Of a stretch of DNA of 32,000 nucleotides, positions 6,408-19,132 are shown in pieces (positions within the stretch are counted from its first letter, which is position 1; each line of letters opens with the position of its first letter). Location: positions 2,010,001 through 2,042,000 of the forward strand of contig CP149973.1 in NCBI GenBank assembly GCA_029269845.2. The letters are read 5' to 3'. Source of the DNA: Opitutia bacterium KCR 482. Its GTDB lineage: Bacteria; Verrucomicrobiota; Verrucomicrobiia; Opitutales; Intestinicryptomonadaceae. Below the pieces are notes generated by a model. The model was not told the DNA's origin. It worked only from the letters and a program-made list of their open reading frames with translations, and ran no database searches. The position numbers and the translations under genes are program-made.

Positions 6408-6415
6408 CTTTAAAA

Positions 6416-7704: not shown

Positions 7705-9921
7705 TTAAACGCAAAATCCGATTCTATTGTTGCTATTTGTTGAACGGTCTCTTTTGAATTCGGTCTCGCGCTTTAAAAGTTCAAGAATGTCGCGCTCGTC
7801 GTAGACGGTATCGGCAAACTGAATTTGCTGAAAGACATTTTTGAAATCTCCCGCCGTCAGATTGTTTAGTTTCTCCAATTCGCAAATGGTTTCCTCGGAC
7901 AATCCTTTTATAGTATCAAAAAAATAGCTCTTGAACAGCTTTTCTCTCGCATCTTTACCGAGGTATCCGAATGTTATTTTCTTTTGGAATCTGCGCATTG
8001 CTGCGGTGTCGATGTTCTCCAAAATGTTTGTGGAGCAAATAAAAATGCCTCTGAAATTTTCCATCTGCGCTAGCATTTCGTTTGTTTGCGAAATTTCCCA
8101 ATTTCTGCTTGCGGTCAACCTGTCTATAAAAAGCGAATCAGCTTCGTCGATTACAAGAATTGCCTTCTCCCGTTCCGCTTGGGCAAAGGCTTTGGCTATG
8201 TTTTTTTCAGTCTCGCCGACATACATTGACTGCATGTCAGACATGTTTTTCAGGATTATTTTCTTGCCCAGTTTTTGCGCAATATGTTTAGCCAATTCCG
8301 TCTTGCCGCTTCCGGGGACGCCCGCAAAAATCATGTTAAGCGGACAATTTACCACGCCTTCTTCCTGCTTTTTGCTGTAATTCGACAAAATTTTCATCAA
8401 AGTGTCGTAGGAAGTGTCCATGTTGATTATGTCGGCGTCGAAATGGCAGTCGGGCTTATATCGCGAAAATTTTTTCGGCGACTTCCCGTTTATTAAAACG
8501 CTTTGAGCTTTTGCAAAAGCCTCGGCCGCATCTAAAAACTCTTCGGTCGAAGAATCTTTAACGACGGTATTAGCCGAATTTACAGACAAAGCGATGCCCG
8601 CTGTGGATAATTGATATTTATCAAGGCGGTTGAATAATTCTTCCGCATCGATTTTGTCGGAAAATGTGGTGGCATTCAGAGCGGTTTTAAGCGAATTTAT
8701 TTTTTGGATTTTTGAAAGGCCGTCAAATTCTATGCTGAACGTAAACCTGCGCAGAGTAGACTCTTCTATTGATTCAATGGAATTTGTAATCCAAATGCTT
8801 TTTCCTTTCATCGAGTCGAGTCTTTTGTTGATGTCGCCTTTGTCGGTATTTTTGCGGTGTAAAAATCCGAAGTTCGACGAAATTATATTGTCGCATTCGT
8901 CGATAAGCGCAACTTTTCCAGTTTTGTTTGAAATAAACTCGGCCATCGCGCATTTGTTGAATTTATTTTCGTCCTCGTTGTCTTTATTGAAAATCGGAAC
9001 GGCAATTTCTTTTCCGCAGGCGGTAATAAGTGTTTTTGCAAATTCGGTTTTTCCGCTTCCCGCCTTGCCGTATAATAAAATCTTGCATGGTGCTTCGGAT
9101 TTTAACAATTCCAATATGATTTTCTTGGAGAGCGCCGGAACGTCAAAGCTCGAAATGTCGAACGTGGCGGCGTTTTCTTCCGCAGTTATGACATTGGGGA
9201 TGAATTCTTTTGTAAGTCCTTGTATGTAATCCGAAATATCTTCCGAAACTTTCAGCTTTTGATTTATAATGCCGAATTTTCTCAAAGACGACGACGATGA
9301 AATCAATGTTGTATACTCGCATATTTCAACGTCAAGCAAAGCCGATATGAGATATGCCCTTCCGCGTCCGTCTAACCTGCCCAACATTTCCTCCAACGGT
9401 GTCCATATCGATTTCACCATAAAAAAGACTATGAGTTTTGCCTCCGTCTCGGTTAACTCGAAGAAACTTTTTGTTAGTTGAACTTGCTCCGACATGTAAT
9501 CGAAATTTTCGAGGTCCAAATTTTTGTTTAAATTTTTCAGAACCATCTCTGTAATATTGGGGAGTAGAATCTTGAATAATTCCGAGCTTGATATGCCGAT
9601 TGTATGCGAATGATTCCAACTAAAAATGCGCCAATCATTATAATCGACATCCAATGATTTGACTTTTTCGCTCGAAAAATTACGTTTCTCATATTCAAGT
9701 ATGTATTTATGGCACGACGCCAACAAATCTACTCCGATTTTTTGAAACAAATCAACCAGCATATCCATGTAATTTGATTCACATTGCGGATGCCTATTTA
9801 GGAAATTTGCCTTTATTATTTTGTATGCGTAGAGCGCGCAAATTCTGTCTTCGTCGAATATATGTCCGCAGTTAAGATAACCGTCCGAATCAGATTTCGC
9901 AATAAGAATGTCTGTGCCCAT
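7705..9921 (-). CDS. twin-domain classic-clade AAA+ ATPase with ~270-aa unknown N-terminal domain
   Basis: D1: Walker A LLYGKAGSGKT, Walker B VALIDECD, then SIWITNS...STLRRF. D2: Walker A FAGVPGSGKT, MYVGETEKNI, Walker B ILVIDEADSL, sensor 1/Arg finger IFICSTN...DTAAMRRF. Confidence 0.85.
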   Translation of the reverse strand: MGTDILIAKSDSDGYLNCGHIFDEDRICALYAYKIIKANFLNRHPQCESNYMDMLVDLFQKIGVDLLASCHKYILEYEKRNFSSEKVKSLDVDYNDWRIFSWNHSHTIGISSSELFKILLPNITEMVLKNLNKNLDLENFDYMSEQVQLTKSFFELTETEAKLIVFFMVKSIWTPLEEMLGRLDGRGRAYLISALLDVEICEYTTLISSSSSLRKFGIINQKLKVSEDISDYIQGLTKEFIPNVITAEENAATFDISSFDVPALSKKIILELLKSEAPCKILLYGKAGSGKTEFAKTLITACGKEIAVPIFNKDNEDENKFNKCAMAEFISNKTGKVALIDECDNIISSNFGFLHRKNTDKGDINKRLDSMKGKSIWITNSIESIEESTLRRFTFSIEFDGLSKIQKINSLKTALNATTFSDKIDAEELFNRLDKYQLSTAGIALSVNSANTVVKDSSTEEFLDAAEAFAKAQSVLINGKSPKKFSRYKPDCHFDADIINMDTSYDTLMKILSNYSKKQEEGVVNCPLNMIFAGVPGSGKTELAKHIAQKLGKKIILKNMSDMQSMYVGETEKNIAKAFAQAEREKAILVIDEADSLFIDRLTASRNWEISQTNEMLAQMENFRGIFICSTNILENIDTAAMRRFQKKITFGYLGKDAREKLFKSYFFDTIKGLSEETICELEKLNNLTAGDFKNVFQQIQFADTVYDERDILELLKRETEFKRDRSTNSNNRIGFCV

Positions 9922-9960
9922 AAATTTTTCCTTTCAAGACAAAGACTATAAAAAAATTGC

Positions 9961-9977
9961 ACGACAAAATATGTCGC
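9961..9977 (-). promoter_or_regulatory. GCGAC-N7-GTCGC element upstream of the twin AAA+ gene
   Basis: Minus-strand reading is GCGAC ATATTTT GTCGT. 39 nt lie between the element and the ATG at 9921. Confidence 0.55.
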
Positions 9978-9988
9978 ACAATTTCGGT

Positions 9989-10483
9989 TTATTCGATAAG
10001 TAGTTTTTCCATCTGAAATTCAATGTTCTTTTCTTTTAGCTTTATCATGTCTTGTAATGCAAAGAGTCCGTCGCAAAAGAACCAATGGGTGGCATAGCAG
10101 ATGTGAATACTGTATTTTTTCAACGGCTCGAAGATTTCAATGTCCCAATTTTCGTCTTCCAAAAGGGTTGAAATTCGATCTGTGGGATTTCGGGGATCGG
10201 GATCGACCGAAATCATATACGGAGTTTGATGTTCGGCAACTTCGGGTGGAAAGTTTATTTTAATTGCTCCTTCTAGCGAGTAATTCCCTTCTATTACGCT
10301 TATATTTGTCAAATGATTCAACCAACATTTTCCTTTACACAATCTATCAAAAAGTTCGTGTGATTTTCTAAGCAGAATAGAATTAACCCGCTTTATTTTG
10401 GCTATGTTTTCTTCGGAAAATTCAAACTTTTTATTCAGCCGTATTTTTCTATTATGTAAATTTTCCGTGATTTTATTTTTCAT
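9989..10483 (-). CDS. hypothetical protein (164 aa)
   Basis: Strong SD (AGGAGG) lies 8 nt upstream of ATG 10483 and overlaps the stop of the upstream gene, a 12-nt gap that suggests an operon. No domain recognised. Confidence 0.6.
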   Translation of the reverse strand: MKNKITENLHNRKIRLNKKFEFSEENIAKIKRVNSILLRKSHELFDRLCKGKCWLNHLTNISVIEGNYSLEGAIKINFPPEVAEHQTPYMISVDPDPRNPTDRISTLLEDENWDIEIFEPLKKYSIHICYATHWFFCDGLFALQDMIKLKEKNIEFQMEKLLIE

Positions 10484-10495
10484 GATATTTACCTC

Positions 10496-11227
10496 CTACA
10501 AAATGCGAAATTTCTGTAAATCGTCCTTCGTTTGGAGAATGACATCATCTTTTAGCGGACGAATTTGATCTTTCATATTTTGCAACACACTTTTAGATGC
10601 ATTGTAAATGCGTTGGTAAAATTCAAGACGAGTAGGGAAATATGCGTTCCATCCGTCGCGAATACACGACGGCTCGATGGAATAATTCGACGTTGCAACA
10701 ATCAAAAATACTCCCGTTCCTTTTGAGTATAAAGCCTTGTTTATAAGTTGGTGAAAGAAAAAGTGGTTCCCTTTTCGTCCAAGCAATTTTGAGTAATCGG
10801 AGGTAATGGAAACAATGACGGGTAATTTTCTCTTCGCAATTTTGTTGTATTCAAAAAACGAACCGCCGAAGCTCTCCAAGAGTTTGTATCTTTCGCGGTA
10901 AATTCTGTAAAGAACTTCTGCTACATCGAGAATTTCGGGAGTTCTGGTTTTTACTTTTCCTCCCCAAAAATGGCAATTCCCCTTAAAACGCGAAAAGATT
11001 TTTCTCTCATTTGAATTTAAAATTATCTCCAATTCCTCGTCGGAATAACGCTCCGAAAGCGATGTAATTAGACTTGAAACGTATTTTGTCAAAAAGCGGT
11101 TGTCGCCTCCAATCAGAATATTCCCGAGCGAAAACAAGTCTTTGAAAACGGTTTCGCCCGTGCAGTTTTTGCCAATCGGAATAGTTATAGCTTTTTCAGG
11201 TTCAAAATTTTGATTTTCGTCTTTCAT
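10496..11227 (-). CDS. stand-alone FtsK/SpoIIIE-like motor-domain protein with degenerate Walker A and B motifs (predicted pseudo-ATPase)
   Basis: Collinear with the FtsK alpha/beta core. [34 protein letters not shown] corresponds to [47 protein letters not shown] corresponds to the Walker B segment (P. aeruginosa FtsK LPTIVVVVDEFADMM, sequence recalled from memory). [12 protein letters not shown] corresponds to GIHLILATQRPS. FPTRLEF corresponds to IPTRIAF. Confidence 0.75.
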   Translation of the reverse strand: [243 protein letters not shown]

Positions 11228-11250
11228 GTTAATTTATATACAAAAATTCA

Positions 11251-11267
11251 GCGACAGAATACGTCGC
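11251..11267 (-). promoter_or_regulatory. GCGAC-N7-GTCGC element upstream of the FtsK-like gene
   Basis: Minus-strand reading is GCGAC GTATTCT GTCGC. 23 nt lie before the ATG at 11227. Confidence 0.55.
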
Positions 11268-11283
11268 ATTCGCTTATGTATGA

Positions 11284-11775
11284 TTACAAAAACTCGTCAT
11301 ACAAAACGTTTCGCATTGTTGCGAGTATGTGGGGATTGGGGGTAGGTGGAAGTTCGAAGCCGTGTTTGTCGTTATACTCCCAATCTGTCTCATTTTCGGA
11401 CAGCACTGAATTTATGAAGTCGTTTAAGATGCGGCTTACTGCCGCGCTTCGGCTGATTCCCGCCGAACAATGAACGAGAATGTGTGTGATTTCCGTGTTT
11501 TTTAACGCTTCTTCAATGCTTTCCAAAATAAAGTATGCCATTTTGCGGTCAAAAACTTTTGTGATGCCTTTGAGCCCAATGTCTGCGGGGGTTGCGTCGT
11601 CAAAAAACAAAACAATTCCGTGTTTCGGTGAAATCGGAGGGCAACACAAATTTTTTACCTTACCGTCATCGTTTTTGCAAAAGTCGTTTATGCTTACAAC
11701 AAATAATGAATCGTCGGCTTCAAGCTCGGACTTGTGCGTTTCAACGTATCTTCGGCTACAATTAAATATTTTCAT
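11284..11775 (-). CDS. small cysteine-dependent (HCX5R) protein tyrosine/dual-specificity phosphatase-like protein
   Basis: P-loop signature ILVHCSAGISRSAAV (CX5R-S), with upstream acidic FFDDATP as a candidate general-acid loop. Size and layout resemble the prokaryotic 'predicted protein tyrosine phosphatase' family. It overlaps the upstream gene by 14 nt. Confidence 0.7.
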   Translation of the reverse strand: MKIFNCSRRYVETHKSELEADDSLFVVSINDFCKNDDGKVKNLCCPPISPKHGIVLFFDDATPADIGLKGITKVFDRKMAYFILESIEEALKNTEITHILVHCSAGISRSAAVSRILNDFINSVLSENETDWEYNDKHGFELPPTPNPHILATMRNVLYDEFL

Positions 11776-13000
11776 GGTTTTTAATACTTTCTATAATGTG
11801 GGGATAAACTCTTACAAATCTTTCTTGTAATTCTTGCGGGAGCTTATCCCAGCATTTGTGTTCTATACAATCGTCCAAATAAGCAGGATATTCTGCGCTT
11901 TTTAGCAAAGTAATCCACTGTTCGGGGTCATTTACATCGTCGAACGTATTGGAGGTAAGCCATTCGTCAATCTCAATAAAATCGTATTTTGTGGTGTTGC
12001 AGACTTTGCTTCGACAAGGCGAATCCTGTCCGAATGTTTTGTAATACTTTTCAAAATAAGAATCCGTGCCAAGTAGTCTATTCCAATCGGTTTTGTCTAA
12101 ACTTGTCCAATCGGAATTCGAAAGGAATTGGAGTTCAAAATTTTTGTTGACCAACAACAACTCTACCCATTCGGCAGAAGAAAAGTATTTAAATATTTTG
12201 CGCGAACATGCAGCGGCTCTCACATCATAGCTTTTTGCATATCGAAGAATGTCCTGCCAATTTTGCCGGCTTAGTTTTTTCCAATACGAAAAATCACATG
12301 CTATTTGATGAATTTCCTTTGAATGTTCGATTAACGTATCATCCATTATCCCGTCCAAAACTCTTTGTTTTAATAGAAACGTCCAGTTCTCCCCACTAAG
12401 TTGCGAGAAGTCTATTGATTTTAAATCGGCCATGCCCTTCGAAAAAAGCGCGATTTTCCCATTTGGGAACTTTGATGCTTGCGAAAACTTTTCGTTGCGC
12501 CTTAGCAGAAACCGCCAGTTTTCGATGCTAAGCAATTCGTATTCATTAAAGCATTTTTGCGGAATTATGCCGAGATACAGTAAGGCGATACGTCCCGCAA
12601 AATAATTCTTTGCGATATTTTCGTATTCTTTTGAAAAATCCAAAATCATTAACCACGAGTACGAATCGAGCTTTGAAAAATCCCGTTCGGGAAAGTTTGT
12701 CATCTTGCCTTTTCTTAAAACAAATAACTCGGCAAAATCATACTGTGAAAACTCGTCAATTTTGTTGCACAGGTCGCGCCTATTTGGGAAGCAAGCCAAA
12801 ATTGCAATTTGTCCGCGCAAAAATCGCGCGGCTTTTCTCAAAAACACGGGGTTTGATTTAATAAGGCGAATCCAGTCTTGCGTGCTCAATAAATCCCATG
12901 CATAAAAGTACTGTGTTAGATTTTGATGCTCAATAAGAGCATCGACGCCGTTAAAATCAAAAAGTCTTTCGATTTCTTTTTCGTATTCTTCTGCGGACAT
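11762..13000 (-). CDS. W-x2-(L/I)L repeat protein (degenerate repeats related to the 557-aa repeat protein)
   Basis: Recurrent segments include QDWIRLIKSNPVF, ENWRFLLRRNEKF, ENWTFLLKQ, QNWQDILRYAKSY, AEWVELLLVNKNF, TDWNRLLGTDSYF and EQWITLLKSAEYP. Start moved to ATG 13000 (MSAEEYEKE), 5 nt after AAGGAG, instead of the track start at 13105, which overlaps the regulatory elements. Confidence 0.7.
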   Translation of the reverse strand: MSAEEYEKEIERLFDFNGVDALIEHQNLTQYFYAWDLLSTQDWIRLIKSNPVFLRKAARFLRGQIAILACFPNRRDLCNKIDEFSQYDFAELFVLRKGKMTNFPERDFSKLDSYSWLMILDFSKEYENIAKNYFAGRIALLYLGIIPQKCFNEYELLSIENWRFLLRRNEKFSQASKFPNGKIALFSKGMADLKSIDFSQLSGENWTFLLKQRVLDGIMDDTLIEHSKEIHQIACDFSYWKKLSRQNWQDILRYAKSYDVRAAACSRKIFKYFSSAEWVELLLVNKNFELQFLSNSDWTSLDKTDWNRLLGTDSYFEKYYKTFGQDSPCRSKVCNTTKYDFIEIDEWLTSNTFDDVNDPEQWITLLKSAEYPAYLDDCIEHKCWDKLPQELQERFVRVYPHIIESIKNHENI

Positions 13001-13036
13001 ATATCTCCTTTTTTTGGCTCGATTATACATTTCAGC

Positions 13037-13053
13037 GCGACGAAATATGACGC
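13037..13053 (-). promoter_or_regulatory. GCGAC-N7-GTCGC element (one arm mismatch) upstream of the repeat-protein/phosphatase unit
   Basis: Minus-strand reading is GCGTC ATATTTC GTCGC. 36 nt lie before the ATG at 13000. Confidence 0.45.
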
Positions 13054-13086
13054 AAAGTGGCATTTTCACGATAAATTCAAAATAGT

Positions 13087-13103
13087 GCGACGTATTTTGT
13101 CGC
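13087..13103 (+). promoter_or_regulatory. GCGAC-N7-GTCGC element upstream of the WYL regulator gene
   Basis: GCGAC GTATTTT GTCGC with perfect arms. 45 nt lie before the ATG at 13149. Confidence 0.55.
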
Positions 13104-13148
13104 AATCGCCTGCTAAATTGTTTTCATTAAAAATCGAAAGGAAATGTT

Positions 13149-14147
13149 ATGCCAAAGAGCAACAACAATAACACAATCGCCCGACAGTGGGAAATGCTGA
13201 AAATGATACCCAAAAAAGCTCCAGGAATTACCGCCGCCGAGCTTGTGTCCAAACTTTCCTACGCGGGTATTGACGTCTCAAAGCGGACGGTGGAGCGCGA
13301 CCTGCGCGACCTCTCCCTGATATTCCCCATCGCTGCAACCGATTCCGTTCCTCCGTTCGGCTGGTATTGGATACGCGACATCGGTTGCGAGTTCGGCGGA
13401 GTTGAAGTTTCCGAAGCCGTATCGCTTACGCTTGCCGAAGACATTCTGAAAAGCGTTCTGCCAGTCTCGATGTTAAAAACTCTCGAACCGCGGTTTGAAT
13501 CGGCGCGCAAAAAACTTGCCGCGCTTGATTCTTTACCCATCAGCAAGTGGAGCAGTAAAGTTCGCTATATTCCCGATTCTCTGCCCACAACGCAGCCGTT
13601 CGTGAAAAATTCTATTCTCGAAACTCTGCAAACGGCACTTGTTGGCGGCAGGCAGATAAAAGTCGCCTACGACCCAATGTGGAAGAAGACAAAAACATAT
13701 ACGTTAAACCCTCTTGCAATAGTTCAGCGTGGCGCGCGTGGATATCTGATAGCCGTCATCGACGGCTACGAAAATCCCGTCCAATTTGCGATTCAACGGT
13801 TGCGGTCGGTTGAAATTTTGAAGACTTCCGCCATTCGCCCGAAAGGGTTTTCGCTCGACAAATACATCGAAAGCGGTGTAATGCAGTTCGGACAGGGCGA
13901 AGTTGTAAAGCTTAAAGCAAACGTCTCCGAAACGCTTGCAATGTATCTCGACGAATGCGAGATCGTAAAAGATCAAAAACTGCGCTTTGTGGACGGCAAG
14001 TGGCAGTTGTCGGCTACAATTAAAAATTCGTGGCAGTTGATGTTTTGGATTCGTTCGCAAGGTTCAGACATAACGGTTCTCTCTCCAAAATCCATTCGCG
14101 AAGATTTGTTAAATGACGCAAAAAAAGTTGTGGAAAATTATGGATAA
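13149..14147 (+). CDS. WYL-domain transcriptional regulator (wHTH-WYL-WCX architecture; BrxR/CapW/PafBC-like)
   Basis: N-terminal wHTH ITAAELVSKLSYAGIDVSKRTVERDLRDL. WYL-type core GRQIKVAYDP...YTLNPLAIVQRGARGYLIAV...VQFAIQRLRSVEIL. RBS AAAGGAA precedes the ATG. Confidence 0.85.
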   Translation: MPKSNNNNTIARQWEMLKMIPKKAPGITAAELVSKLSYAGIDVSKRTVERDLRDLSLIFPIAATDSVPPFGWYWIRDIGCEFGGVEVSEAVSLTLAEDILKSVLPVSMLKTLEPRFESARKKLAALDSLPISKWSSKVRYIPDSLPTTQPFVKNSILETLQTALVGGRQIKVAYDPMWKKTKTYTLNPLAIVQRGARGYLIAVIDGYENPVQFAIQRLRSVEILKTSAIRPKGFSLDKYIESGVMQFGQGEVVKLKANVSETLAMYLDECEIVKDQKLRFVDGKWQLSATIKNSWQLMFWIRSQGSDITVLSPKSIREDLLNDAKKVVENYG

Positions 14148-14655
14148 TTTGAATTTTACCGCCATCGATTTTGAAACCGCGAACGGGAATAGGGCGAGCG
14201 TTTGCAGTGTTGGCGCAGTATTTGTGCGGGACGGCGAAGTTGCGGATACTTTTTATAGCCTTATCCGGCCGACGCCGAATTACTACACCCTCACCCGCAT
14301 TCACGGACTTACGCGAAACGATACCGATTCCGCCGCAACTTTCCCCGAAGTGTGGTCTAAAATTTCTGATAGGCTGGGGAATGCGCTGCTTGTAGCGCAT
14401 TTTGCAACTTTCGATGAGTCGTGCTTGCGTCAAGTTTTCGCCGCATACAATATGCCCTACGACAACTATGAATTTCGTTGCACCTGTTGCGGCGCAAAAC
14501 GATATTTTTCGACTTTACCAGCTTCCCTGCGTCCCGAAAGAACAACTCTGGACGTTGTTTGCGACTACTTCAATCTTGAACTTAACCACCATAACGCGCT
14601 TTCCGACGCCGTCGCCTGCGCACAAATAGCAATAAAAATAAAGGACTATCTATGA
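14140..14655 (+). CDS. DEDDh 3'-5' exonuclease (DnaQ/epsilon-like)
   Basis: Exo I FTAIDFETANG, Exo II LVAHFATFDESCL, Exo III HNALSDAVACAQI. ATG 14140 overlaps the WYL stop by 8 nt (ATGGATAA). Confidence 0.85.
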   Translation: MDNLNFTAIDFETANGNRASVCSVGAVFVRDGEVADTFYSLIRPTPNYYTLTRIHGLTRNDTDSAATFPEVWSKISDRLGNALLVAHFATFDESCLRQVFAAYNMPYDNYEFRCTCCGAKRYFSTLPASLRPERTTLDVVCDYFNLELNHHNALSDAVACAQIAIKIKDYL

Positions 14656-15305
14656 AAATTCTGACCTACATAATTTTGGCTCTGACGCTCTGCGCTTGCA
14701 CAAAAAGCAACTGCACAATCACCGATAAAATTTTTGCATTCAAAGAAGATTCTGCGGCACATCAGACAATAAACGAAATGCTGCGCAAGAAGTTCGCCGA
14801 ATTGAAAACGGAAATTGCCGCCGAAGCTGCCGAAGCTAAACGCGACCCCGAAGCCGCACATATTCAATACGAAGTTTCCGCCGAAACAAAAGTTTATGTA
14901 AATACCCCCAAATTCTTTTCCGCAAGAAACGACTATCATACCTATACAGGCGGTGCACACGGCGACTCAATGTCGGAAGGCTTTAATATCGTGTTCAACG
15001 ATGATGGCACAATAACAAGACTCTCGCTCTTCAATGTAATCGACGTAAACAAGACGGACGAATTTGTAAAACTCGTCCTGTCGAAACTGAAACAGAAATA
15101 CGGTAAGATGCTTGCACTCGACGATATCAAAACAAACACCGACCTGCTCAACGCCATAGACGGATTCGTCCTCAGAAAAGACGGTCTGGAAATCTTCTTC
15201 AAAAAATATTCCGTAGCCTGCGGCGCTTGTTCCACCGCCCCGATTCTAGTTGAATATGGTCGTATTAGTGATATCGCCAACACGGTAATTGACATTATAT
15301 TCTAA
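14652..15305 (+). CDS. lipoprotein with DUF3298/DUF4163-like (RsiV/PdaC C-terminal type) domain
   Basis: Signal peptide plus lipobox MKILTYIILALTLCAC. YHTYTGGAHGDSMSEGFNIVF matches the GGAHG core of DUF3298. ATGA overlap with the exonuclease stop. Confidence 0.7.
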   Translation: MKILTYIILALTLCACTKSNCTITDKIFAFKEDSAAHQTINEMLRKKFAELKTEIAAEAAEAKRDPEAAHIQYEVSAETKVYVNTPKFFSARNDYHTYTGGAHGDSMSEGFNIVFNDDGTITRLSLFNVIDVNKTDEFVKLVLSKLKQKYGKMLALDDIKTNTDLLNAIDGFVLRKDGLEIFFKKYSVACGACSTAPILVEYGRISDIANTVIDIIF

Positions 15306-15327
15306 AATGATAACAATCTAAATTATT

Positions 15328-16446
15328 ATGATTTTGACTGCTATGGAAAATATATATTTAGAGCATTACAAGCCTTTAATTAAAAAGTTTATTGAAGAAA
15401 TGGACAAACTTGAATTACCTGAAATTCAAGGAATGCCAGAGCCATTTCTTAGTTATTTTGGGAAAAGATATTTTTCATCTCAGCAAAGAATAGTTTTTGT
15501 TGGTCGGGATACAAAAAACTATGGCGATCTAAGATTGTTTATCAAAGCGGAAAAAAACAACCCGCTTTCCAAAGTAAAGTCAGAGTTAAATTCATTCCAA
15601 AAGCTTGATTTTAGGAATTGGGGTTCTACAAGATATAAGTTTTTTGGTTTTATAATGATGTTTTTTGCAATCAAGAACGATTTACAACCAGAAAATTGGA
15701 CTCTCATCAAACAGGATAAATATAAAGACCTCTTGGAATCGTTCGCATGGGCAAATTGCCAACCCATAGAATATTATGAAAGCACAGCAAAACATCGAGG
15801 TGTAGATGGTGTTCTATGGGAAAAAATAAGAAATGCAGGACGAGTCTTCTACGGCTTTAAACATATTTTAACGACATTGGATCCTGATGTTGTTGTAATA
15901 CTGCACAAGAATATTCCTTCTGACTACTTTGAAGGTGTTAACATCCAAAAAATCGAGGGGAATTCATTTTATGAGCACTATATTTTGAACGATAAAAATG
16001 TACATATCATTAAACTTTGCCATCCAAATCGTATGCGTTTGACTGCAAGCGAGATGACTGTAAGTAACTTTTGTAATTTTTTGAAGGATAAAATGGATGT
16101 TATCAAAAAAGATTCAGTAATTTCAGCGAATACTTCTGCAAAAGTTGAATATTTTAAAAAATATAAAGAAAATTTAGCCAAAACTGCGGATAAATATGAA
16201 TTTATTTTTGCACTGGCGAAATATCTACAATCGCATAACATTTATATGTCATATAACGGGTTGGCAGAGCTTCTAAACTACTGCGGATATACAACGAATA
16301 GGGGTACTCAATATGTCGTGAATTCAAAACGGGCTAGAATTATAGGAACAGCGTATCGCCGTGCGAAAGATAAAAATGATCATAGTTTAGCCGAAACAAT
16401 AGCTACAGTTTTTGTGAATCCGAATTTTTCATATAAGTACGAATAA
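15328..16446 (+). CDS. hypothetical 372-aa protein; N-terminal ~240 aa possibly UDG-fold-like
   Basis: Starts 22 nt after the lipoprotein gene on the same strand, with lower GC than the three upstream genes. RIVFVGRDTKNYG and IIKLCHPNRMRL sit in the relative positions of UDG-superfamily motifs A and B. This is a weak, pattern-only assignment. Confidence 0.55.
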   Translation: MILTAMENIYLEHYKPLIKKFIEEMDKLELPEIQGMPEPFLSYFGKRYFSSQQRIVFVGRDTKNYGDLRLFIKAEKNNPLSKVKSELNSFQKLDFRNWGSTRYKFFGFIMMFFAIKNDLQPENWTLIKQDKYKDLLESFAWANCQPIEYYESTAKHRGVDGVLWEKIRNAGRVFYGFKHILTTLDPDVVVILHKNIPSDYFEGVNIQKIEGNSFYEHYILNDKNVHIIKLCHPNRMRLTASEMTVSNFCNFLKDKMDVIKKDSVISANTSAKVEYFKKYKENLAKTADKYEFIFALAKYLQSHNIYMSYNGLAELLNYCGYTTNRGTQYVVNSKRARIIGTAYRRAKDKNDHSLAETIATVFVNPNFSYKYE

Positions 16447-16502
16447 ACTTAAAGTTTTGTTTGCATAATATTTGAAAGATAAAAATTAGTATATAATAGC
16501 TC

Positions 16503-16519
16503 GCGACATATAATGTCGC
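16503..16519 (+). promoter_or_regulatory. GCGAC-N7-GTCGC element upstream of the Imm-family gene
   Basis: GCGAC ATATAAT GTCGC. The arms extend to 8 bp (CTCGCGAC/GTCGCGAG, 16500-16522). 22 nt lie before the ATG at 16542. Confidence 0.55.
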
Positions 16520-16541
16520 GAGTTTCGCTTATGATTTGGGT

Positions 16542-16736
16542 ATGGAAATTTTGGTGCTTTTAGTTGTTATATTATTGGCGGCATTTGTTTATTTTTTGCC
16601 TGTGATTATTGCGTTTTGGCGCAGGCACACTTACAGGTGGGTGATTTTTATTTTAAATATATTCGGGTTCTTGGGTATCTTTTGGATTGTAGCGCTCATT
16701 TGGTCGGTTTGGCCGCGCGACGAAATGTTTAATTAA
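16542..16736 (+). CDS. superinfection immunity (Imm_superinfect family) small membrane protein
   Basis: VYFLPVIIAFWRRHTYRWVIFILNIFGFLGIFWIVALIWSVW matches the YFLP.IIA..R.H......I...N...G.....W...L.W pattern of the T4 Imm-like family, with two TM helices. ATG 16542 preferred to TTG 16536. Confidence 0.7.
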   Translation: MEILVLLVVILLAAFVYFLPVIIAFWRRHTYRWVIFILNIFGFLGIFWIVALIWSVWPRDEMFN

Positions 16737-16744
16737 TTTTTTGT

Positions 16745-16761
16745 GCGACGTAAAATGTCGC
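16745..16761 (+). promoter_or_regulatory. GCGAC-N7-GTCGC element upstream of the 71-aa ORF
   Basis: GCGAC GTAAAAT GTCGC. 51 nt lie before the ATG at 16813. Confidence 0.55.
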
Positions 16762-16812
16762 GCTGGTGATTAAAATAGACGTCGCCAAACAAAATTAACA
16801 GAAAGGATAATT

Positions 16813-17028
16813 ATGGCACTTTGGACTGTTACGGTAAAAGCAACAAGAAACATAAACGGTCTTAGACTCGAACGCGGAATGAGTGTGCAGGTCTCGTCGA
16901 TGTACCACCCGATATCGTATAATAACGGTGAAGCAACTCGTCAGGCTTTCATCCGAATCTATGGCATAGATTTAAAAAAGGCAGGCGCGCTTAGCATTGC
17001 GTACTTTGACATAGAAAAGCAAAACTAA
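16813..17028 (+). CDS. hypothetical 71-aa protein
   Basis: RBS AAAGGA lies upstream, the ORF has its own upstream palindromic element, and a terminator hairpin follows. No domain recognised. Confidence 0.55.
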   Translation: MALWTVTVKATRNINGLRLERGMSVQVSSMYHPISYNNGEATRQAFIRIYGIDLKKAGALSIAYFDIEKQN

Positions 17029-17036
17029 ATAACGAA

Positions 17037-17066
17037 GCGGCGGAATAATTTATTCCGCCGCTTTTT
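17037..17066. terminator. bidirectional terminator hairpin between convergent small genes
   Basis: GCGGCGGAATAA-T-TTATTCCGCCGC (12-nt arms) followed by TTTTT on the + strand. The stop of the minus-strand gene lies inside the hairpin. Confidence 0.65.
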
Positions 17067-17262
17067 CATCGAGTTCCTGTTTGTATTTTTCAAAACAAGC
17101 CGGATGTCGCTTTAAAACATCTATGCATTCGTCGGGGTAATTGTGCTGATTCTTTTCGATATATTCTTCCTGCGTTTGGGTGTCGGACTGCCAAAATAAC
17201 GGCTCTACCCAACTTGAAATGTAGGAGCACGCAACAACTATTAAAACTGCAATATCTTTCAT
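17050..17262 (-). CDS. small secreted protein or lipoprotein (70 aa)
   Basis: MKDIAVLIVVACSYISSW is a signal-like N-terminus with Cys. Start moved to ATG 17262 because the track start at 17310 overlaps the regulatory element. Confidence 0.45.
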   Translation of the reverse strand: MKDIAVLIVVACSYISSWVEPLFWQSDTQTQEEYIEKNQHNYPDECIDVLKRHPACFEKYKQELDEKAAE

Positions 17263-17298
17263 TTTTGTTTTCTGTTTCAAAAATAATAACCATCGGAA

Positions 17299-17315
17299 GC
17301 GACAATACACGTCGT
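17299..17315 (-). promoter_or_regulatory. GCGAC-N7-GTCGC element upstream of the 70-aa ORF
   Basis: Minus-strand reading is ACGAC GTGTATT GTCGC. 36 nt lie before the ATG at 17262. Confidence 0.45.
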
Positions 17316-17346
17316 TTAAGATTTATTTTGAGATATTTTTATGAGA

Positions 17347-17363
17347 ACGACGTATTCTGTCGC
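17347..17363 (+). promoter_or_regulatory. GCGAC-N7-GTCGC element upstream of the 557-aa repeat protein gene
   Basis: ACGAC GTATTCT GTCGC. 95 nt lie before the ATG at 17459. Confidence 0.5.
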
Positions 17364-17458: not shown

Positions 17459-19132
17459 ATGAAAAAATACACAGATGAACAATTGGAAAAGTTCAATTCG
17501 GAAGAATGGTGCGACTTACTTTTGGCACAACCGCAGTTTGCTGAACAATGCGATAGATTTAATGCTTGGATGAAATTCAAATCAGGTGATTGGACTGATA
17601 TTTTGCGTAAACTACCGCAGTTTGCCGATAGATGTGATAAAATCAATGCTTGGACAAAATTTGAAGATGTCTCTTGTAGTCTTCTTATCCGCGAACAACC
17701 GCAGTTTGCCGATAGATGCGATAAAGTCAATGGTTGGGTAAAATTTAATGACTTAGCTTGGTACCTGGTTCTCTCTGCTCAACCGCAATTTGCAGACAGA
17801 TGTGATAAGCTAAACGGCTGGGCAAATTTTGATGGAAGAGTTTGGCATGATCTACTTTTAAAACAACCGCAGTTTGTAGAAAAAGCTAAAAACTATGCAT
17901 CAGGCTGGGCTGGTATTATTATGCAGACTCCTGAACTTGCATCTGAATGCAAAGATTGGGAGAAGTTCGGCGGTTCTGAATGGATTGAGCTTTTACCGCA
18001 GTTTACAGATTGGTGCGATAAGGTAAATGGTTGGATGAAATTTACTTCAGAAGATTGGTGCGAATTTCTTTCTAATCATCCAGAACTTGCGGGCAAATGT
18101 GATAAAATGAACGGCTGGGCGAAATTCAATTCAGGAGATTGGAGTGAACTTCTTTCTAATTTTCCAAAGTTTGCGAGTAAATGCGATAAACAAGATGGCT
18201 GGAAAAATTTTGATTCAGATGCATGGGGTGCTCTTTTAGGTTCCCAACCGCAGTTTGTAACTAGGTGTGATAAGTCTAATGGCTGGAGAAAAATCACTTC
18301 GGCAGATTGGGAATACATGCTTTTCTATCAACCGCAATTTGCAGACAGGTGTGATAAGGTTAACGGTTGGGTGGAATTCACTTCGGGGAACTGGAGTGAA
18401 CTACTTTCAAAACGACCGCAGTTTGTAGATAAATGCGATAAAGTTGATGGTTGGGAACAATTCGATGGAGAGGATTGGCGTGCTATTCTCTCTTCCCAAC
18501 CGCAGTTTGTGGACAGGTGCGATAAAATAAATGGTTGGGCTGAATTCGACGGCTTAAATTGGGGGTACCTACTTTCAAAACAACCGCAGTTTGCGGATAA
18601 ATGCGATAAAATGGACGGTTGGAAACAATTCGACGGATTAAGTTGGTGCATCCTTCTTTCTGCCAAACCACAGTTTGTAGAAAAGTGTGATAAAATGGAC
18701 GGATGGAAGCAAATTGATGGATCCGGTTGGAGTATCTTGCTTTCGGACCAACCGCAGTTCGTGGATAGATGCGATAAGGTAAACGGTTGGGCGGAATTCA
18801 CTTCAGGGAATTGGGTGGAACTTATTTTTAATCATCAGCAGTTTGCTGACTGGTGTGATAAGATGAATGGCTGGGTGGAATTCAATTCGGTTGATTGGCA
18901 CGATTTGCTATACTATCACCCAGAGTTTGCAGACAGATGTGATAAAGTGGATGGTTGGGGACAATTTGATGGATCAGAATGGAGATACCTTCTCTCGGGC
19001 CAACCGCAATTTGCAGATAGATGCGATAAGGTAAACGGCTGGATAAAATTCATTCCGGCGGATTGGGATGAGTTGCTTTCTTCCCAGCCGCAGTTTGTGG
19101 ACAAGCGAACAAAGTGTAAAAAGAACTCATAG
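17459..19132 (+). CDS. tandem 28-residue repeat protein (~19 repeats, consensus DW..LLS.QPQFADRCDKVNGW..F...)
   Basis: Almost the whole protein is made of 28-aa units. No signal peptide or TM segment. No named repeat family recognised. Confidence 0.85.
   Translation: MKKYTDEQLEKFNSEEWCDLLLAQPQFAEQCDRFNAWMKFKSGDWTDILRKLPQFADRCDKINAWTKFEDVSCSLLIREQPQFADRCDKVNGWVKFNDLAWYLVLSAQPQFADRCDKLNGWANFDGRVWHDLLLKQPQFVEKAKNYASGWAGIIMQTPELASECKDWEKFGGSEWIELLPQFTDWCDKVNGWMKFTSEDWCEFLSNHPELAGKCDKMNGWAKFNSGDWSELLSNFPKFASKCDKQDGWKNFDSDAWGALLGSQPQFVTRCDKSNGWRKITSADWEYMLFYQPQFADRCDKVNGWVEFTSGNWSELLSKRPQFVDKCDKVDGWEQFDGEDWRAILSSQPQFVDRCDKINGWAEFDGLNWGYLLSKQPQFADKCDKMDGWKQFDGLSWCILLSAKPQFVEKCDKMDGWKQIDGSGWSILLSDQPQFVDRCDKVNGWAEFTSGNWVELIFNHQQFADWCDKMNGWVEFNSVDWHDLLYYHPEFADRCDKVDGWGQFDGSEWRYLLSGQPQFADRCDKVNGWIKFIPADWDELLSSQPQFVDKRTKCKKNS
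17501..19106 (+). repeat. in-frame 84-bp tandem repeat array (coding)
   Basis: The conserved core (C[AT]ACCGCAGTTTGC) recurs at 17528, 17612 and 17696, an exact 84-bp spacing, and continues to ~19.1 kb. The units are diverged at the nucleotide level. Confidence 0.85.

What the first reader, a model, noticed from the sequence alone, without database searches (positions are those of the whole stretch)
9961..17363. One 17-bp palindromic promoter/operator-like element (GCGAC-N7-GTCGC) precedes every transcription unit between 7.7 and 19.1 kb
I found eight copies, each intergenic and each oriented the same way relative to the gene it precedes (read on the sense strand of that gene). They are: 9977-9961 GCGAC ATATTTT GTCGT, 39 nt before the twin AAA+ ATG; 11267-11251 GCGAC GTATTCT GTCGC, 23 nt before the FtsK-like ATG; 13053-13037 GCGTC ATATTTC GTCGC, 36 nt before ATG 13000; 13087-13103 GCGAC GTATTTT GTCGC, 45 nt before the WYL ATG; 16503-16519 GCGAC ATATAAT GTCGC, arms extendable to 8 bp, 22 nt before the Imm ATG; 16745-16761 GCGAC GTAAAAT GTCGC, 51 nt before ATG 16813; 17315-17299 ACGAC GTGTATT GTCGC, 36 nt before ATG 17262; 17347-17363 ACGAC GTATTCT GTCGC, 95 nt before ATG 17459. 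The spacer is asymmetric (R-T-A/G-T/A-W-W/C-T) and looks like a -10 hexamer caged between the two arms. That is the geometry expected for a repressor operator overlapping a promoter, or for a dedicated promoter class. By eye the element is absent upstream of the R-M genes, the ABC ATPase, fic, the DUF4143 ATPase and the SIR2 gene. It therefore groups functionally unrelated-looking genes (AAA+, pseudo-FtsK, phosphatase, repeat proteins, WYL operon, Imm, tiny ORFs) into one regulon or one mobile module. The WYL-HTH regulator has a perfect copy in its own promoter and is the obvious candidate binder. An alternative reading is a 5-bp stem / 7-nt loop RNA hairpin in the 5' UTRs.
Basis: seen in the sequence. 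Interest (0 to 1): 0.85.

Follow-up and report, generated by a model that had tools for sequence, protein, structure and literature searches.

The report
WYL-activator promoter boxes of an island regulon
The repeated 17-bp palindrome is real and is most likely the binding site of the island's own DNA-damage-sensing WYL regulator, sitting where a normal promoter has its -35 element, so it is a new example, in a rumen Verrucomicrobium, of a switch already described in Caulobacter (DriD) and Acinetobacter (DdaA).

Summary
Observation confirmed. Eight GCGAC-N7-GTCGC boxes lie at the stated coordinates (10 hits against 0.76 expected). Each is intergenic and sense-oriented before one of eight transcription units (16 genes, 7705-19132). 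No other site in the window scores.

Interpretation partly right. The box is a promoter-linked site for the local HTH-WYL-WCX protein. That protein is 31% identical (E 8e-52) to a 335-aa A. baumannii protein I take to be DdaA. Its closest solved relative is DriD. The DNA-reading Arg46/Arg50 and ssDNA-contacting Tyr174/Tyr199 are conserved. DriD and DdaA bind CGAC-N7-GTCG.

Every box is followed after 9-10 nt by a TAnnnT-like hexamer, and there is no -35. The box therefore spans about -39 to -23. That is the arrangement in DriD-RNAP cryo-EM promoters and in PafBC's tGTCgg-N10-tAnnnT. The same grammar recurs beside homologous WYL genes in Verrucomicrobiota and Proteobacteria (66 boxes against 3.8 expected; A28/T32 peak).

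Most likely mechanism: an ssDNA-activated WYL dimer recruits RNA polymerase to eight -35-less promoters. Verdict: new member of a known kind, moderate interest. The regulated genes are mostly unknown. A twin-AAA+/WYL/nuclease module is conserved across phyla.

The parts
9961..9977 (-). Box 1 (GCGAC ATATTTT GTCGT). Promoter of the twin-AAA+ gene. Its -10 is TATAGT at 9945-9950 and the predicted TSS is about 9938. The palindrome extends to 9953-9985 and is followed by U7.
   Evidence: (score 27.9)
11251..11267 (-). Box 2 (GCGAC GTATTCT GTCGC). Promoter of the pseudo-FtsK/164-aa operon. Its -10 is TATATA at 11235-11240. The predicted TSS coincides with the ATG at 11227, so the mRNA would be leaderless.
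   Evidence: 28.5; ortholog promoters in L001/L002 keep the 22-23 nt spacing
13037..13053 (-). Box 3 (GCGTC ATATTTC GTCGC). Promoter of the 412-aa repeat protein/phosphatase operon. Its -10 is TATAAT at 13022-13027 (gap 9).
   Evidence: 20.7
13087..13103 (+). Box 4 (GCGAC GTATTTT GTCGC). Promoter of the WYL-exonuclease-PdaC-372aa operon and the best-scoring box. Its -10 is TAAATT at 13114-13119.
   Evidence: 33.5; the same box lies 44-46 nt before the WYL orthologs in L001-L004
16503..16519 (+). Box 5 (GCGAC ATATAAT GTCGC, arms 8 bp). Promoter of the Imm_superinfect gene. Its -10 is TATGAT at 16530-16535. The predicted TSS coincides with the ATG at 16542, so the mRNA would be leaderless.
   Evidence: 27.8; L002 ortholog keeps the 22-nt spacing
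16745..16761 (+). Box 6 (GCGAC GTAAAAT GTCGC). Promoter of the DUF6140 gene. Its -10 is TAAAAT at 16771-16776 (gap 9).
   Evidence: 24.3
17299..17315 (-). Box 7 (ACGAC GTGTATT GTCGC). Promoter of the 70-aa gene 17050-17262 and the weakest box. Its -10 is TATTAT at 17283-17288.
   Evidence: 17.3, just above the shuffle maximum of 16.1
17347..17363 (+). Box 8 (ACGAC GTATTCT GTCGC). Promoter of the 557-aa repeat protein. Its -10 is TATAAG at 17374-17379.
   Evidence: 27.2; 35-nt similarity to promoter 2 runs through the -10 (I1)
13149..14147 (+). wHTH-WYL-WCX regulator (332 aa), the proposed binder and activator.
   Evidence: Pfam WYL and WCX. The best solved relatives are DriD, then PafBC. It is 31% identical, E 8e-52, to the presumed A. 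baumannii DdaA. R46, R50, Y174 and Y199 are invariant in the family.
14113..16446 (+). Genes co-transcribed with the regulator: a DnaQ/RNase T-type 3'-5' exonuclease (14113-14655), a PdaC/DUF3298 protein (14652-15305) and an unknown 372-aa protein (15328-16446).
   Evidence: The exonuclease follows the WYL gene in L001-L003 as well.
7705..9921 (-). Twin-AAA+ ATPase (738 aa), the target of box 1. It is a conserved partner of this WYL family.
   Evidence: Homologs are near the WYL gene in 32 of 80 related loci, 20 of them immediately upstream on the same strand.
9989..11227 (-). Operon of the degenerate FtsK/SpoIIIE-like 243-aa protein (10496-11227) and an unknown 164-aa protein (9989-10483).
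   Evidence: Orthologs in L001/L002 are also behind a box.
11284..13000 (-). Operon of a 412-aa repeat protein (11762-13000) and a weak dual-specificity-phosphatase-like 163-aa protein (11284-11775).
16542..17262 (.). Three small genes, each with its own box: Imm_superinfect membrane protein (16542-16736 +), DUF6140 (16813-17028 +) and a 70-aa protein (17050-17262 -). A bidirectional terminator lies at 17035-17063.
   Evidence: The trio is conserved in L002.
17459..19132 (+). 557-aa protein built of about 28-residue repeats (QPQFADRCDKVNGW...), the target of box 8.
   Evidence: (13 copies of an 84-nt period). An L002 homolog is also behind a box.

Best explanation
The eight boxes are the DNA sites of the island's own wHTH-WYL-WCX protein, a DdaA/DriD-type homodimeric activator. 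Each box is the upstream half of a composite promoter.

Promoter layout (inferred from alignment):
- A 9-10 nt gap follows.
- Then comes a TAnnnT -10 hexamer. There is no -35 hexamer.

Proposed mechanism (inferred by homology to DriD, DdaA and PafBC):
- The regulator binds single-stranded DNA, produced by DNA damage or by invading or replicating foreign DNA, in its WYL domain. This frees its two wHTH domains.
- Arg46 and Arg50 read the G bases of each CGAC/GTCG half-site.
- The bound dimer recruits sigma-70-type RNA polymerase to promoters that are too weak on their own.
- All eight units fire together: 16 genes, including the regulator itself (positive autoregulation), a DnaQ-like exonuclease, a twin-AAA+ ATPase, small membrane proteins and repeat proteins.
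- The slightly asymmetric spacer (R-Y-A-T-T-Y-T) tracks promoter direction.

Shown here: the sites, their non-random number, the fixed spacing to a -10, the absence of a -35, conservation of box, spacing and protein residues across phyla, and co-occurrence of box and WYL gene.

Inferred, not shown: binding, activation rather than repression, the ssDNA signal, and the transcription start sites.
For: 1. Number and placement of sites.
- 10 hits against 0.76 expected.
- The eight sense-oriented boxes are the top matrix hits and nothing else in 32 kb scores.

2. Spacing to a -10.
- All eight boxes are followed at 9-10 nt by TATAGT, TATATA, TATAAT, TAAATT, TATGAT, TAAAAT, TATTAT or TATAAG.
- In 66 spacer-oriented boxes from 80 related loci, many with 55-66% GC, A is 71% at position 28 and T is 70% at position 32.
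- A28 and T32 occur together in 43 of 66 at shift 0 and in 14 of 66 at shift -1. Other shifts give 0-6.

3. No -35 element.
- A consensus sigma-70 scan finds no -35/-10 pair at any of the eight promoters.

4. Same geometry as characterised WYL activators.
- The DriD box overlaps the missing -35 at a fixed distance from the -10 in three cryo-EM complexes (PMC13004042).
- In their oligo, ATACGAC CGTTTCT GTCGC-N10-CAATCT, the same A28/T32 register holds.
- The PafBC consensus is tGTCgg(N10)tA(N3)T, read by PafB R46/R50 (PMC8635444).

5. The protein.
- Pfam WYL and WCX.
- Best solved relatives are DriD (E 4.5e-5, residues 11-245), then PafBC. No BrxR or CapW hit appears.
- The recognition helix KRTVER aligns to DriD RRTAER.
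- 31% identity, E 8e-52, to the 335-aa A. baumannii protein that carries DdaA's R47/R51.
- R46, R50, Y174 and Y199 are invariant in 30 family members. They correspond to the mutationally validated DdaA R47, R51, Y173 and Y200 (PMC13010146).

6. Known motifs of the relatives.
- DriD: ATACGAC(X)7GTCGTAT with an AT-rich spacer.
- DdaA: CGWCA-N5-TGWCG.

7. Co-occurrence of box and WYL gene.
- GCGAC-N7-GTCGC occurs 66 times against 3.8 expected in 1.28 Mb around WYL homologs.
- In a metagenome scan for the exact 17-mer, blind to gene content, 14 of 33 hits with a correctly spaced -10 have a WYL-family gene in the locus. Only 1 of 60 hits without a -10 does.

8. Orthologous promoters keep the box.
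- L001 and L002 keep it before the orthologs of the WYL, pseudo-FtsK, Imm and repeat-protein genes.
- The two genes that lack a Shine-Dalgarno sequence keep their ATG 22-23 nt after the box, at the predicted +1.
Against: - There are no experimental data for this organism. The start sites are predictions.
- In the AT-rich window alone, a TAnnnT near any site is not very improbable. The argument leans on the GC-rich relatives.
- Some DriD ssDNA contacts are not conserved (DriD K202 and R204 align to N209 and V211), so the ligand could differ.
- The window's regulon holds no canonical repair gene apart from a DnaQ-like exonuclease. This is unlike the DriD and DdaA regulons.
- WYL proteins of the same architecture (CapW, BrxR) are repressors.
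- Three boxes form stable hairpins if transcribed.
Confidence: 0.78

Rival explanations
1. Repressor operator. The WYL protein (CapW/BrxR-like) sits on the promoters and blocks RNA polymerase until ssDNA or another signal releases it.
For: CapW and BrxR have the same wHTH-WYL-WCX architecture, bind palindromes at promoters of defence genes and are repressors (abstracts and text). The island lies among defence-type genes: R-M, an AAA_15 ATPase, Fic, SIR2. A site centred near -31 is also a classic repressor position.
Against: The promoters have no -35 element to repress. The box-to-(-10) register is identical to the activators DriD and PafBC. The protein's detectable solved relatives are DriD and PafBC, not BrxR or CapW, and it is far closer to DdaA, an activator. 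In published trees, DDR activators and CapW/BrxR form separate clades.
Confidence: 0.1
2. The AT-rich spacer is the -10 hexamer, caged by the operator arms, and transcription starts just downstream of the box.
For: The spacers read TATTTT, TATTCT, TATAAT and TAAAAT. Spacer positions 7 (A, 80%) and 11 (T, 81%) are conserved in relatives even when sites are oriented independently of the spacer.
Against: This reading leaves the equally conserved A28/T32 signal 10 nt downstream unexplained. No -35 lies upstream of the box in the window, and no conserved position upstream of -5 appears in the relatives. A5/T11 and A7/T9 are symmetric, as expected for an extended half-site rather than a -10. DriD needs an AT-rich spacer for DNA bending. 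Cryo-EM places the DriD box at -35, not at -10. The two genes without a Shine-Dalgarno sequence have their ATG exactly at the +1 predicted from the downstream hexamer, and their orthologs do too.
Confidence: 0.05
3. RNA-level element. The box is a 5-bp stem/7-nt loop hairpin acting in 5' UTRs, or an intrinsic terminator or insulator between units.
For: If transcribed, three boxes fold strongly: 9922-9985, z = -4.2, with a 14-bp stem plus U7; 16495-16541, z = -4.5; 16738-16812, z = -3.0. These three, plus box 2, are exactly the ones that follow a co-directional gene. The terminator scan flags several of them.
Against: Five of the eight fold no better than shuffles. Arm variants are uncompensated: GCGTC/GTCGC, ACGAC/GTCGC. 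The box lies upstream of the predicted start of the gene it precedes. There is no Rfam match. The motif matches a known protein-binding site. At most, a secondary terminator role for boxes 1, 2, 5 and 6 remains possible.
Confidence: 0.04
4. A promoter class for an alternative sigma factor, or a generic REP/MITE-like repeat unrelated to the WYL protein.
For: The sequence upstream of a -10-like hexamer is conserved and there is no sigma-70 -35.
Against: Dyad symmetry argues for a dimeric HTH protein, not a sigma region 4. No sigma gene is present in the island. The box follows WYL homologs across phyla. It is confined to eight gene-proximal, sense-oriented sites in the window. No repeat unit extends beyond the box and the -10.
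Confidence: 0.03

Closest known systems
DdaA of Acinetobacter/Moraxellaceae (PMC12392091; PMC13010146)
   Same: - Same wHTH-WYL-WCX architecture and size (335 against 332 aa).
- 31% identity, E 8e-52, to the presumed A. baumannii DdaA.
- The validated residues R47/R51 (DNA) and Y173/Y200 (ssDNA) are conserved here as R46/R50/Y174/Y199.
- The motif CGWCA-N5-TGWCG fits the window's CGAC-R-N5-T-GTCG.
- DdaA is an activator that also drives defence genes.
- Homologs outside Moraxellaceae are described as self-regulated regulators of unknown neighbouring genes. That is the situation here.
   Different: - DdaA in Acinetobacter is a global regulator (recA, ssb, uvrA, aciT, CRISPR-Cas) and is not autoregulated.
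- Here the visible regulon is a compact 11.5-kb cluster of mostly unknown genes with positive autoregulation.
- The host phylum is Verrucomicrobiota.
- A fixed box-to-(-10) distance did not appear in the passages of the DdaA papers I read.
DriD of Caulobacter crescentus (PMC9186387, PMC10853764, PMC13004042)
   Same: - Box ATACGAC(X)7GTCGTAT with an AT-rich spacer.
- The box overlaps the absent -35 at a fixed distance from the -10. GTCGC-N10-(nAnnnT) is identical in their oligo and here.
- The base-reading Arg37/Thr38/Arg41 align to R46/T47/R50.
- The box is present in the regulator's own promoter.
- An ssDNA exonuclease (recJ there, DnaQ-like here) and a small membrane protein (didA there, Imm-like here) are among the targets.
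   Different: - Only a distant sequence relative (phmmer E 4.5e-5 against PDB, roughly 20-25% identity).
- The flanks differ (ATA/TAT there, G/C here).
- DriD K202 and R204 are not conserved.
- Target gene families are otherwise unrelated.
PafBC of mycobacteria, 'sigma adaptation' promoters (PMC8635444)
   Same: - Hybrid promoters without a -35.
- Consensus tGTCgg(N10)tA(N3)T, the same register as GTCGC-N10-tAnnnT here.
- The two guanines are read by PafB R46/R50, the same residue numbers as in the window protein.
- Activated by ssDNA.
   Different: - PafBC is a heterodimer that uses one half-site only and cannot bind DNA without RNA polymerase.
- Here the site is a full palindrome and a single WYL gene is present, which implies a homodimer as for DriD and DdaA.
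CapW / BrxR (WYL repressors of CBASS and BREX)
   Same: wHTH-WYL-WCX homodimers. They bind palindromes at promoters of defence genes in defence islands. CapW senses ssDNA.
   Different: They are repressors of otherwise functional promoters and form a separate clade. They are not detected as relatives of the window protein at E <= 0.01. The operator geometry is not tied to a missing -35.

Membership tests
DdaA/DriD-type homodimeric WYL activators and their boxes | wHTH - WYL - WCX domain architecture, about 330 aa | tested here: met
   Pfam WYL (7e-11) and WCX (1.4e-8), with weak N-terminal HTH hits. Alignment to DriD covers residues 11-245 and to the presumed DdaA covers residues 7-317.
DdaA/DriD-type homodimeric WYL activators and their boxes | Two arginines in the recognition helix that read the guanines of the half-site (DriD R37/R41; DdaA R47/R51) | tested here: met
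   Window R46 and R50 align to them and are invariant in 30 family members.
DdaA/DriD-type homodimeric WYL activators and their boxes | ssDNA-contacting tyrosines of the WYL domain (DriD Y168/Y192; DdaA Y173/Y200) | tested here: met
   Window Y174 and Y199 align and are invariant. Other DriD contacts (K202, R204) are not conserved.
DdaA/DriD-type homodimeric WYL activators and their boxes | Palindromic site CGAC-N7-GTCG with an AT-rich spacer in target promoters | tested here: met
   Eight sites in the window. There are 66 against 3.8 expected around homologs.
DdaA/DriD-type homodimeric WYL activators and their boxes | Box overlaps the position of an absent -35, at a fixed distance from the -10 (DriD cryo-EM) | tested here: met
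   In silico only. The gap is 9-10 nt in 8 of 8 window sites. Relatives show an A28/T32 peak. No -35 is present. The register is the same as in the DriD oligo.
DdaA/DriD-type homodimeric WYL activators and their boxes | Protein binds the box as a dimer; binding or activation is stimulated by ssDNA; deletion lowers target expression | not testable with these tools
   Needs EMSA or fluorescence polarisation, in vitro transcription, and genetics.
DdaA/DriD-type homodimeric WYL activators and their boxes | Regulon of DNA-damage-response genes (recA, ssb, uvrA, recJ, division inhibitor) | tested here: inconclusive
   In the window, only a DnaQ-like exonuclease and a small membrane protein fit. Relatives add UDG, a DnaB_C-like ATPase and DUF2779. 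The rest of the genome could not be scanned.
PafBC sigma-adaptation promoters | Heterodimer PafB/PafC; a single non-palindromic -26 element | tested here: not met
   There is one WYL gene and a full palindrome. Only the register GTC-N12-tAnnnT is shared.
CapW/BrxR-type WYL repressor operators | Operator overlapping an otherwise complete sigma-70 promoter; protein in the CapW/BrxR clade | tested here: not met
   No -35. No BrxR or CapW chain appears among solved relatives at E <= 0.01. PADLOC gives only generic WYL models.
Structured RNA / intrinsic terminator | Stable hairpin in the transcript with compensatory changes; a U-tract for terminators | tested here: not met
   Five of eight fold no better than shuffles. 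Arm variants are uncompensated. No Rfam hit. Box 1 alone looks like a true terminator (14-bp stem plus U7).
REP/MITE-like dispersed repeat | Longer repeat unit, random orientation, intragenic copies, no link to a regulator | tested here: not met
   Similarity does not extend beyond the box and the -10. All copies are intergenic and sense-oriented. The box is tied to WYL genes across phyla.

The most novel reading that the evidence does not exclude
The box-controlled cluster is not just a local copy of a DNA-damage regulon. It may be an undescribed, horizontally moving 'ssDNA alarm' module.

- The core would be a twin-AAA+ ATPase, the WYL activator and a nuclease. The nuclease is DUF2779 in most lineages and a DnaQ-like exonuclease in Opitutales. 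This core is conserved from Proteobacteria to Verrucomicrobiota.
- Lineage-specific effectors would be plugged in simply by acquiring the -35-less box promoter. Here these are repeat proteins, a pseudo-FtsK, a phosphatase-like protein and small membrane proteins.
- The module would act in anti-phage defence or abortive infection.
- It would represent the ancestral state from which the global DdaA response of Acinetobacter evolved.
Probability: 0.3. Interest if true: 0.65.

Novelty: new member of a known kind. Interest (0 to 1): 0.42.

Why it matters
- It extends the DriD/DdaA/PafBC type of SOS-independent, ssDNA-triggered transcription activation to Verrucomicrobiota, here rumen Opitutales.
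- One promoter grammar appears to be shared by four WYL activator lineages in four phyla: GTC of the proximal half-site, then 12 nt, then tAnnnT, with no -35. This makes such regulons predictable from sequence alone.
- It provides a clean, compact test case: eight promoters and 16 genes within 11.5 kb.
- It assigns a probable induction condition, DNA damage or foreign DNA, to about a dozen proteins of unknown function.
- It points to a twin-AAA+/WYL/nuclease module that I did not find described. A literature search for DUF2779 together with WYL gave no papers.

Tried and rejected
- RNA reading. Folding of all eight regions and an Rfam scan gave no family, and only the boxes at tandem gene junctions fold well. 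Rejected as the primary function.
- Consensus sigma-70 and terminator scan. No -35/-10 pair lies at the boxes. This was used as evidence for activator dependence, not as a promoter call.
- PADLOC, NCBIfam and PHROGs on the island proteins. No known defence system and no phage structural or integration genes. Only generic AAA+, DEDDh and WYL models, plus a phage ATPase family (phrog_10401) matching the twin-AAA+. The 'prophage' reading is not supported.
- The hits at 168 and 20321 were rejected as chance.
- Metagenome scan for the exact 17-mer. About two thirds of the hits are chance matches inside genes. One group of about 15 near-identical human-gut contigs turned out to be one intragenic site in an abundant organism. 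The scan was useful only after splitting hits by presence of the -10.
- Supplementary files of the DdaA paper, wanted for the 'genes near ddaA' figure, are not held.
- Phage and plasmid collections. These gave only an unverified 'phage' scaffold carrying the same AAA+/WYL pair, and an A. baumannii chromosome filed as a plasmid. The latter supplied the presumed DdaA sequence.

Full report
**1. The observation**

A search for GCGAC-N7-GTCGC with one mismatch gives 10 hits in the 32-kb window. Shuffles give 0.76 +- 0.84, and none of 100 reaches 10. When each is read on the strand of the gene it precedes, the distances to the start codons are 39, 23, 36, 45, 22, 51, 36 and 95 nt, exactly as reported.

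The ORF map and Pfam annotation show that these eight sites precede all eight transcription units between 7705 and 19132:
- the twin-AAA+ ATPase;
- pseudo-FtsK plus a 164-aa protein;
- a 412-aa repeat protein plus a phosphatase-like protein;
- WYL regulator, DnaQ-like exonuclease, PdaC-like protein and a 372-aa protein;
- the Imm_superinfect gene;
- the DUF6140 gene;
- a 70-aa protein;
- a 557-aa repeat protein.

A position matrix built only from related genomes ranks the eight sense-oriented boxes first, with scores of 17.3-33.5. The maximum in shuffled sequence is 16.1, and nothing else in the window exceeds 6. The extra hits at 168 and 20321 are therefore chance. The element is indeed absent before the R-M, ABC-ATPase, fic, DUF4143 and SIR2 genes.

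**2. Anatomy: the box is the upstream half of a promoter**

Nine or ten nucleotides after the 3' arm, every copy has a -10-like hexamer: TATAGT, TATATA, TATAAT, TAAATT, TATGAT, TAAAAT, TATTAT or TATAAG. If that hexamer is the -10, the box spans about -39 to -23.

The sequence at the -35 position is then C-R-T-A-T-T, which does not resemble TTGACA. A consensus sigma-70 scan finds no -35/-10 pair at any of the eight promoters.

Two genes have no Shine-Dalgarno sequence (10496-11227 and Imm 16542-16736). Their ATG lies 22-23 nt after the box, on the predicted +1. The other genes have longer leaders, most of them with AGGA/AGGAG. Promoters 2 and 8 share 35 nt of similarity that runs through the box, the gap and the -10 (I1).

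**3. The candidate binder**

The 332-aa product of 13149-14147 has WYL and WCX domains behind an N-terminal HTH.
- Among all solved structures, its best relatives are Caulobacter DriD (E 4.5e-5, residues 11-245), then mycobacterial PafBC. No BrxR or CapW chain appears at E <= 0.01.
- Its recognition helix KRTVER aligns with DriD RRTAER. In DriD, Arg37 and Arg41 read the guanines of the site.
- An A. baumannii chromosome filed among the plasmids supplied a 335-aa protein with Arg47 and Arg51. Its length and residues match the published DdaA. The window protein is 31% identical to it over 320 residues, E 8e-52.
- In an alignment of 30 family members, R46, R50, Y174 and Y199 are invariant. They align with DdaA R47, R51, Y173 and Y200. 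Mutation of the arginines abolishes promoter activation, and mutation of the tyrosines reduces the damage response (PMC13010146).

**4. What the literature says about such sites**

- DriD binds ATACGAC(X)7GTCGTAT. A GC-rich spacer was made to test the role of the AT-rich centre. 68 of 69 alpha-proteobacterial driD promoters carry CGXC(X)7GXCG (PMC10853764).
- DdaA binds CGWCA-N5-TGWCG (PMC12392091; PMC13010146).
[quoted passage not shown] - In their oligonucleotide...CGAC CGTTTCT GTCGC AATGCGCGGA CAATCT..., the arm is followed by 10 nt and then nAnnnT. This is the same register as in the window.
- The PafBC consensus tGTCgg(N10)tA(N3)T has the same register again. Its guanines are read by PafB R46 and R50 (PMC8635444).
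- The window's promoters therefore follow a grammar established structurally for WYL activators. [quoted passage not shown]

**5. Comparative evidence**

The protein family is large, with 218 hits at E <= 1e-5. The closest relatives are rumen and gut Opitutales MAGs (79% and 59% identity). The window therefore comes from a Verrucomicrobiota (Opitutales) genome. Relatives at 39-46% identity occur in Akkermansiaceae, Luteolibacter, Pseudomonas, Rheinheimera, Moraxellaceae MAGs and others.

In the 80 fetched loci (1.28 Mb):
- GCGAC-N7-GTCGC occurs 66 times against 3.8 expected, and the 8-base core occurs 121 times against 30.
- With sites oriented by the spacer alone, A reaches 71% at position 28 and T reaches 70% at position 32, counting from the C of CGAC. 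The two occur together in 43 of 66 sites at shift 0 and 14 of 66 at shift -1. Other shifts give 0-6. Many of these genomes have 55-66% GC, so the signal is not an AT-richness artefact.
- With sites oriented by the -10 alone, the spacer consensus is R-Y-A-T-T-Y-T. Positions 5/11 and 7/9 are symmetric. Positions 6 and 8 carry the asymmetry that tracks promoter direction.
- In L001 and L002, the orthologs of the WYL, pseudo-FtsK, Imm and repeat-protein genes are again preceded by boxes. The pseudo-FtsK and Imm orthologs keep the 22-nt box-to-ATG distance.

A scan of the metagenome collection for the exact 17-mer, blind to gene content, gave 93 distinct sites. Of the 33 with a correctly spaced -10, 14 have a WYL-family gene in the often short locus. 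Nineteen have a WYL, twin-AAA+, DUF2779 or exonuclease gene. Of the 60 sites without a -10, only one or two do.

**6. Mechanism proposed**

The WYL protein is most likely an ssDNA-activated homodimeric activator. It binds each box and recruits sigma-70-type RNA polymerase to eight -35-less promoters. This switches on 16 genes together, its own operon included.

Inferred, not shown: binding, the sign of regulation, the ligand and the start sites.

Two parallels with DriD targets are suggestive only. The DnaQ-type exonuclease co-transcribed with the regulator parallels recJ, and the small membrane protein behind the strongest palindrome parallels didA.

**7. Rivals**

- A CapW/BrxR-like repressor model is disfavoured by the missing -35, by the activator register and by the protein's relationships.
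It also conflicts with the DriD structures, although the spacer does fit a minimal nAnnnT.
- An RNA hairpin is unlikely as the main function. Five of eight regions fold no better than shuffles, arm variants are uncompensated and there is no Rfam match.
- The boxes that follow a co-directional gene do have extended arms. One of them (9953-9985) has a 14-bp stem plus U7 and looks like a real intrinsic terminator. A secondary terminator role is therefore possible.

**8. Context and what is new**

The cluster lies in a low-GC region (33-48%, against about 55% at 26-32 kb). That region is rich in defence-type genes. A 517-nt direct repeat containing ISL3 transposase remnants brackets 6.9-24.5 kb.

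The published DdaA work already notes two things about DdaA homologs. Before DdaA was transferred into the Alcanivoracaceae/Moraxellaceae ancestor, it putatively regulated unknown neighbouring genes. In basal Moraxellaceae lineages it is self-regulated. The finding is therefore a new member of a known kind.

Three points that I did not find described:
- the extension to Verrucomicrobiota;
- the conservation of the box-to-(-10) register across DriD, DdaA-like and PafBC lineages;
- a recurrent twin-AAA+/WYL/DUF2779 gene module. The AAA+ gene is near the WYL gene in 32 of 80 loci, and DUF2779 in 28 of 80. Both often have their own boxes. In Opitutales a DnaQ-like exonuclease takes the nuclease position.

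Literature searches for DUF2779 with WYL, and for WYL regulators in Verrucomicrobia, found nothing relevant.

Noticed in passing
window 6392-6908 and 24474-24979: A 517-nt direct repeat (95% identical) containing a hairpin and the 3' parts of ISL3-family transposase genes (6612-7553 -, 24683-25210 -). It brackets an 18-kb segment holding the whole box regulon plus the DUF4143 and SIR2 genes. This could be a composite-transposon-like unit or a recombination substrate.
   Followed up: partly
window 9953-9985 (-), 16498-16524, 16743-16763, 11251-11267 (-): The four boxes that follow a co-directional gene have longer palindromes than the four in divergent intergenic regions. 9953-9985 gives a 14-bp stem followed by U7 (-17.9 kcal/mol, z = -4.2). 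These boxes may double as terminators or insulators for the upstream unit.
   Followed up: partly
window 11227 and 16542; L001 2763; L002 6490 and 11555: Two regulon genes (pseudo-FtsK-like and Imm_superinfect) and their orthologs lack a Shine-Dalgarno sequence. Their ATG lies 22-23 nt after the box, at the predicted +1, which implies leaderless mRNAs. Many box-driven genes in relatives also start 13-27 nt after the box.
   Followed up: partly
L006-L079 (for example L012 7924-9981, 10001-11002, 11074-12624): A conserved three-gene module: a twin-AAA+ ATPase (about 690 aa), the WYL regulator and a DUF2779 protein (about 500 aa). It occurs in Verrucomicrobiota and Proteobacteria, usually with a box before the AAA+ gene and another before the DUF2779 gene. 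In Opitutales a DnaQ-like exonuclease replaces DUF2779. I found no literature on it.
   Followed up: partly
window 17517-19121 and 11762-13000: The 557-aa protein consists of at least 13 tandem 84-nt (28-aa) repeats with a QPQFADRCDKVNGW core. The 412-aa protein in the divergent operon is a distant relative (about 20% identity). Neither matches Pfam, PADLOC or PHROGs. An LRR protein is a box target in L038.
   Followed up: no
window 16503-16519, minus strand; 16 of 121 boxes in related loci: Some boxes have a correctly spaced -10-like hexamer on both sides. Here TATACT lies 9 nt from the box on the minus strand, pointing into the end of the 372-aa gene. This suggests occasional bidirectional use, as at the Caulobacter driD/CCNA_03891 promoter. 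In the AT-rich window it may be chance.
   Followed up: no
window 13037-13103 and 17299-17363: The two divergent promoter pairs place their boxes 50 and 48 bp apart, centre to centre (44 bp in L001 2786-2846). Whether two dimers interact is unknown.
   Followed up: no
L094, L107, L124, L170 (metagenome loci): More divergent HTH-WYL proteins (302-332 aa; recognition helices LRTLQRD, LRTVQRD, KRTIERA) in 27-56% GC contigs carry the identical GCGAC-RTATTYT-GTCGC box with a correctly spaced -10 in their own promoters. The box/helix code therefore reaches beyond the family aligned here.
   Followed up: no
L128 2050-2066 and about 15 near-identical human-gut contigs (L084, L090, L105, L108 and others): An exact copy of the box with a -10-like hexamer lies inside the 5' part of a 267-aa ORF of an abundant gut organism, antisense to it. 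It is probably a chance intragenic match multiplied by abundance.
   Followed up: partly
window 857-3258: Convergent type II R-M pair: a C5 cytosine methyltransferase with an N-terminal Cro/C1 HTH (857-2035 +) and an MspI-family endonuclease (2032-3258 -). It is followed by an AAA_15 ABC-type ATPase and a DUF4172-Fic protein. This is a defence-island context to the left of the regulon.
   Followed up: no
window 25891-29391: Two ORFs of more than 1100 codons overlap on opposite strands. Only the + strand one has a domain (autotransporter beta-domain). The antisense ORF is probably a GC-rich artefact.
   Followed up: no
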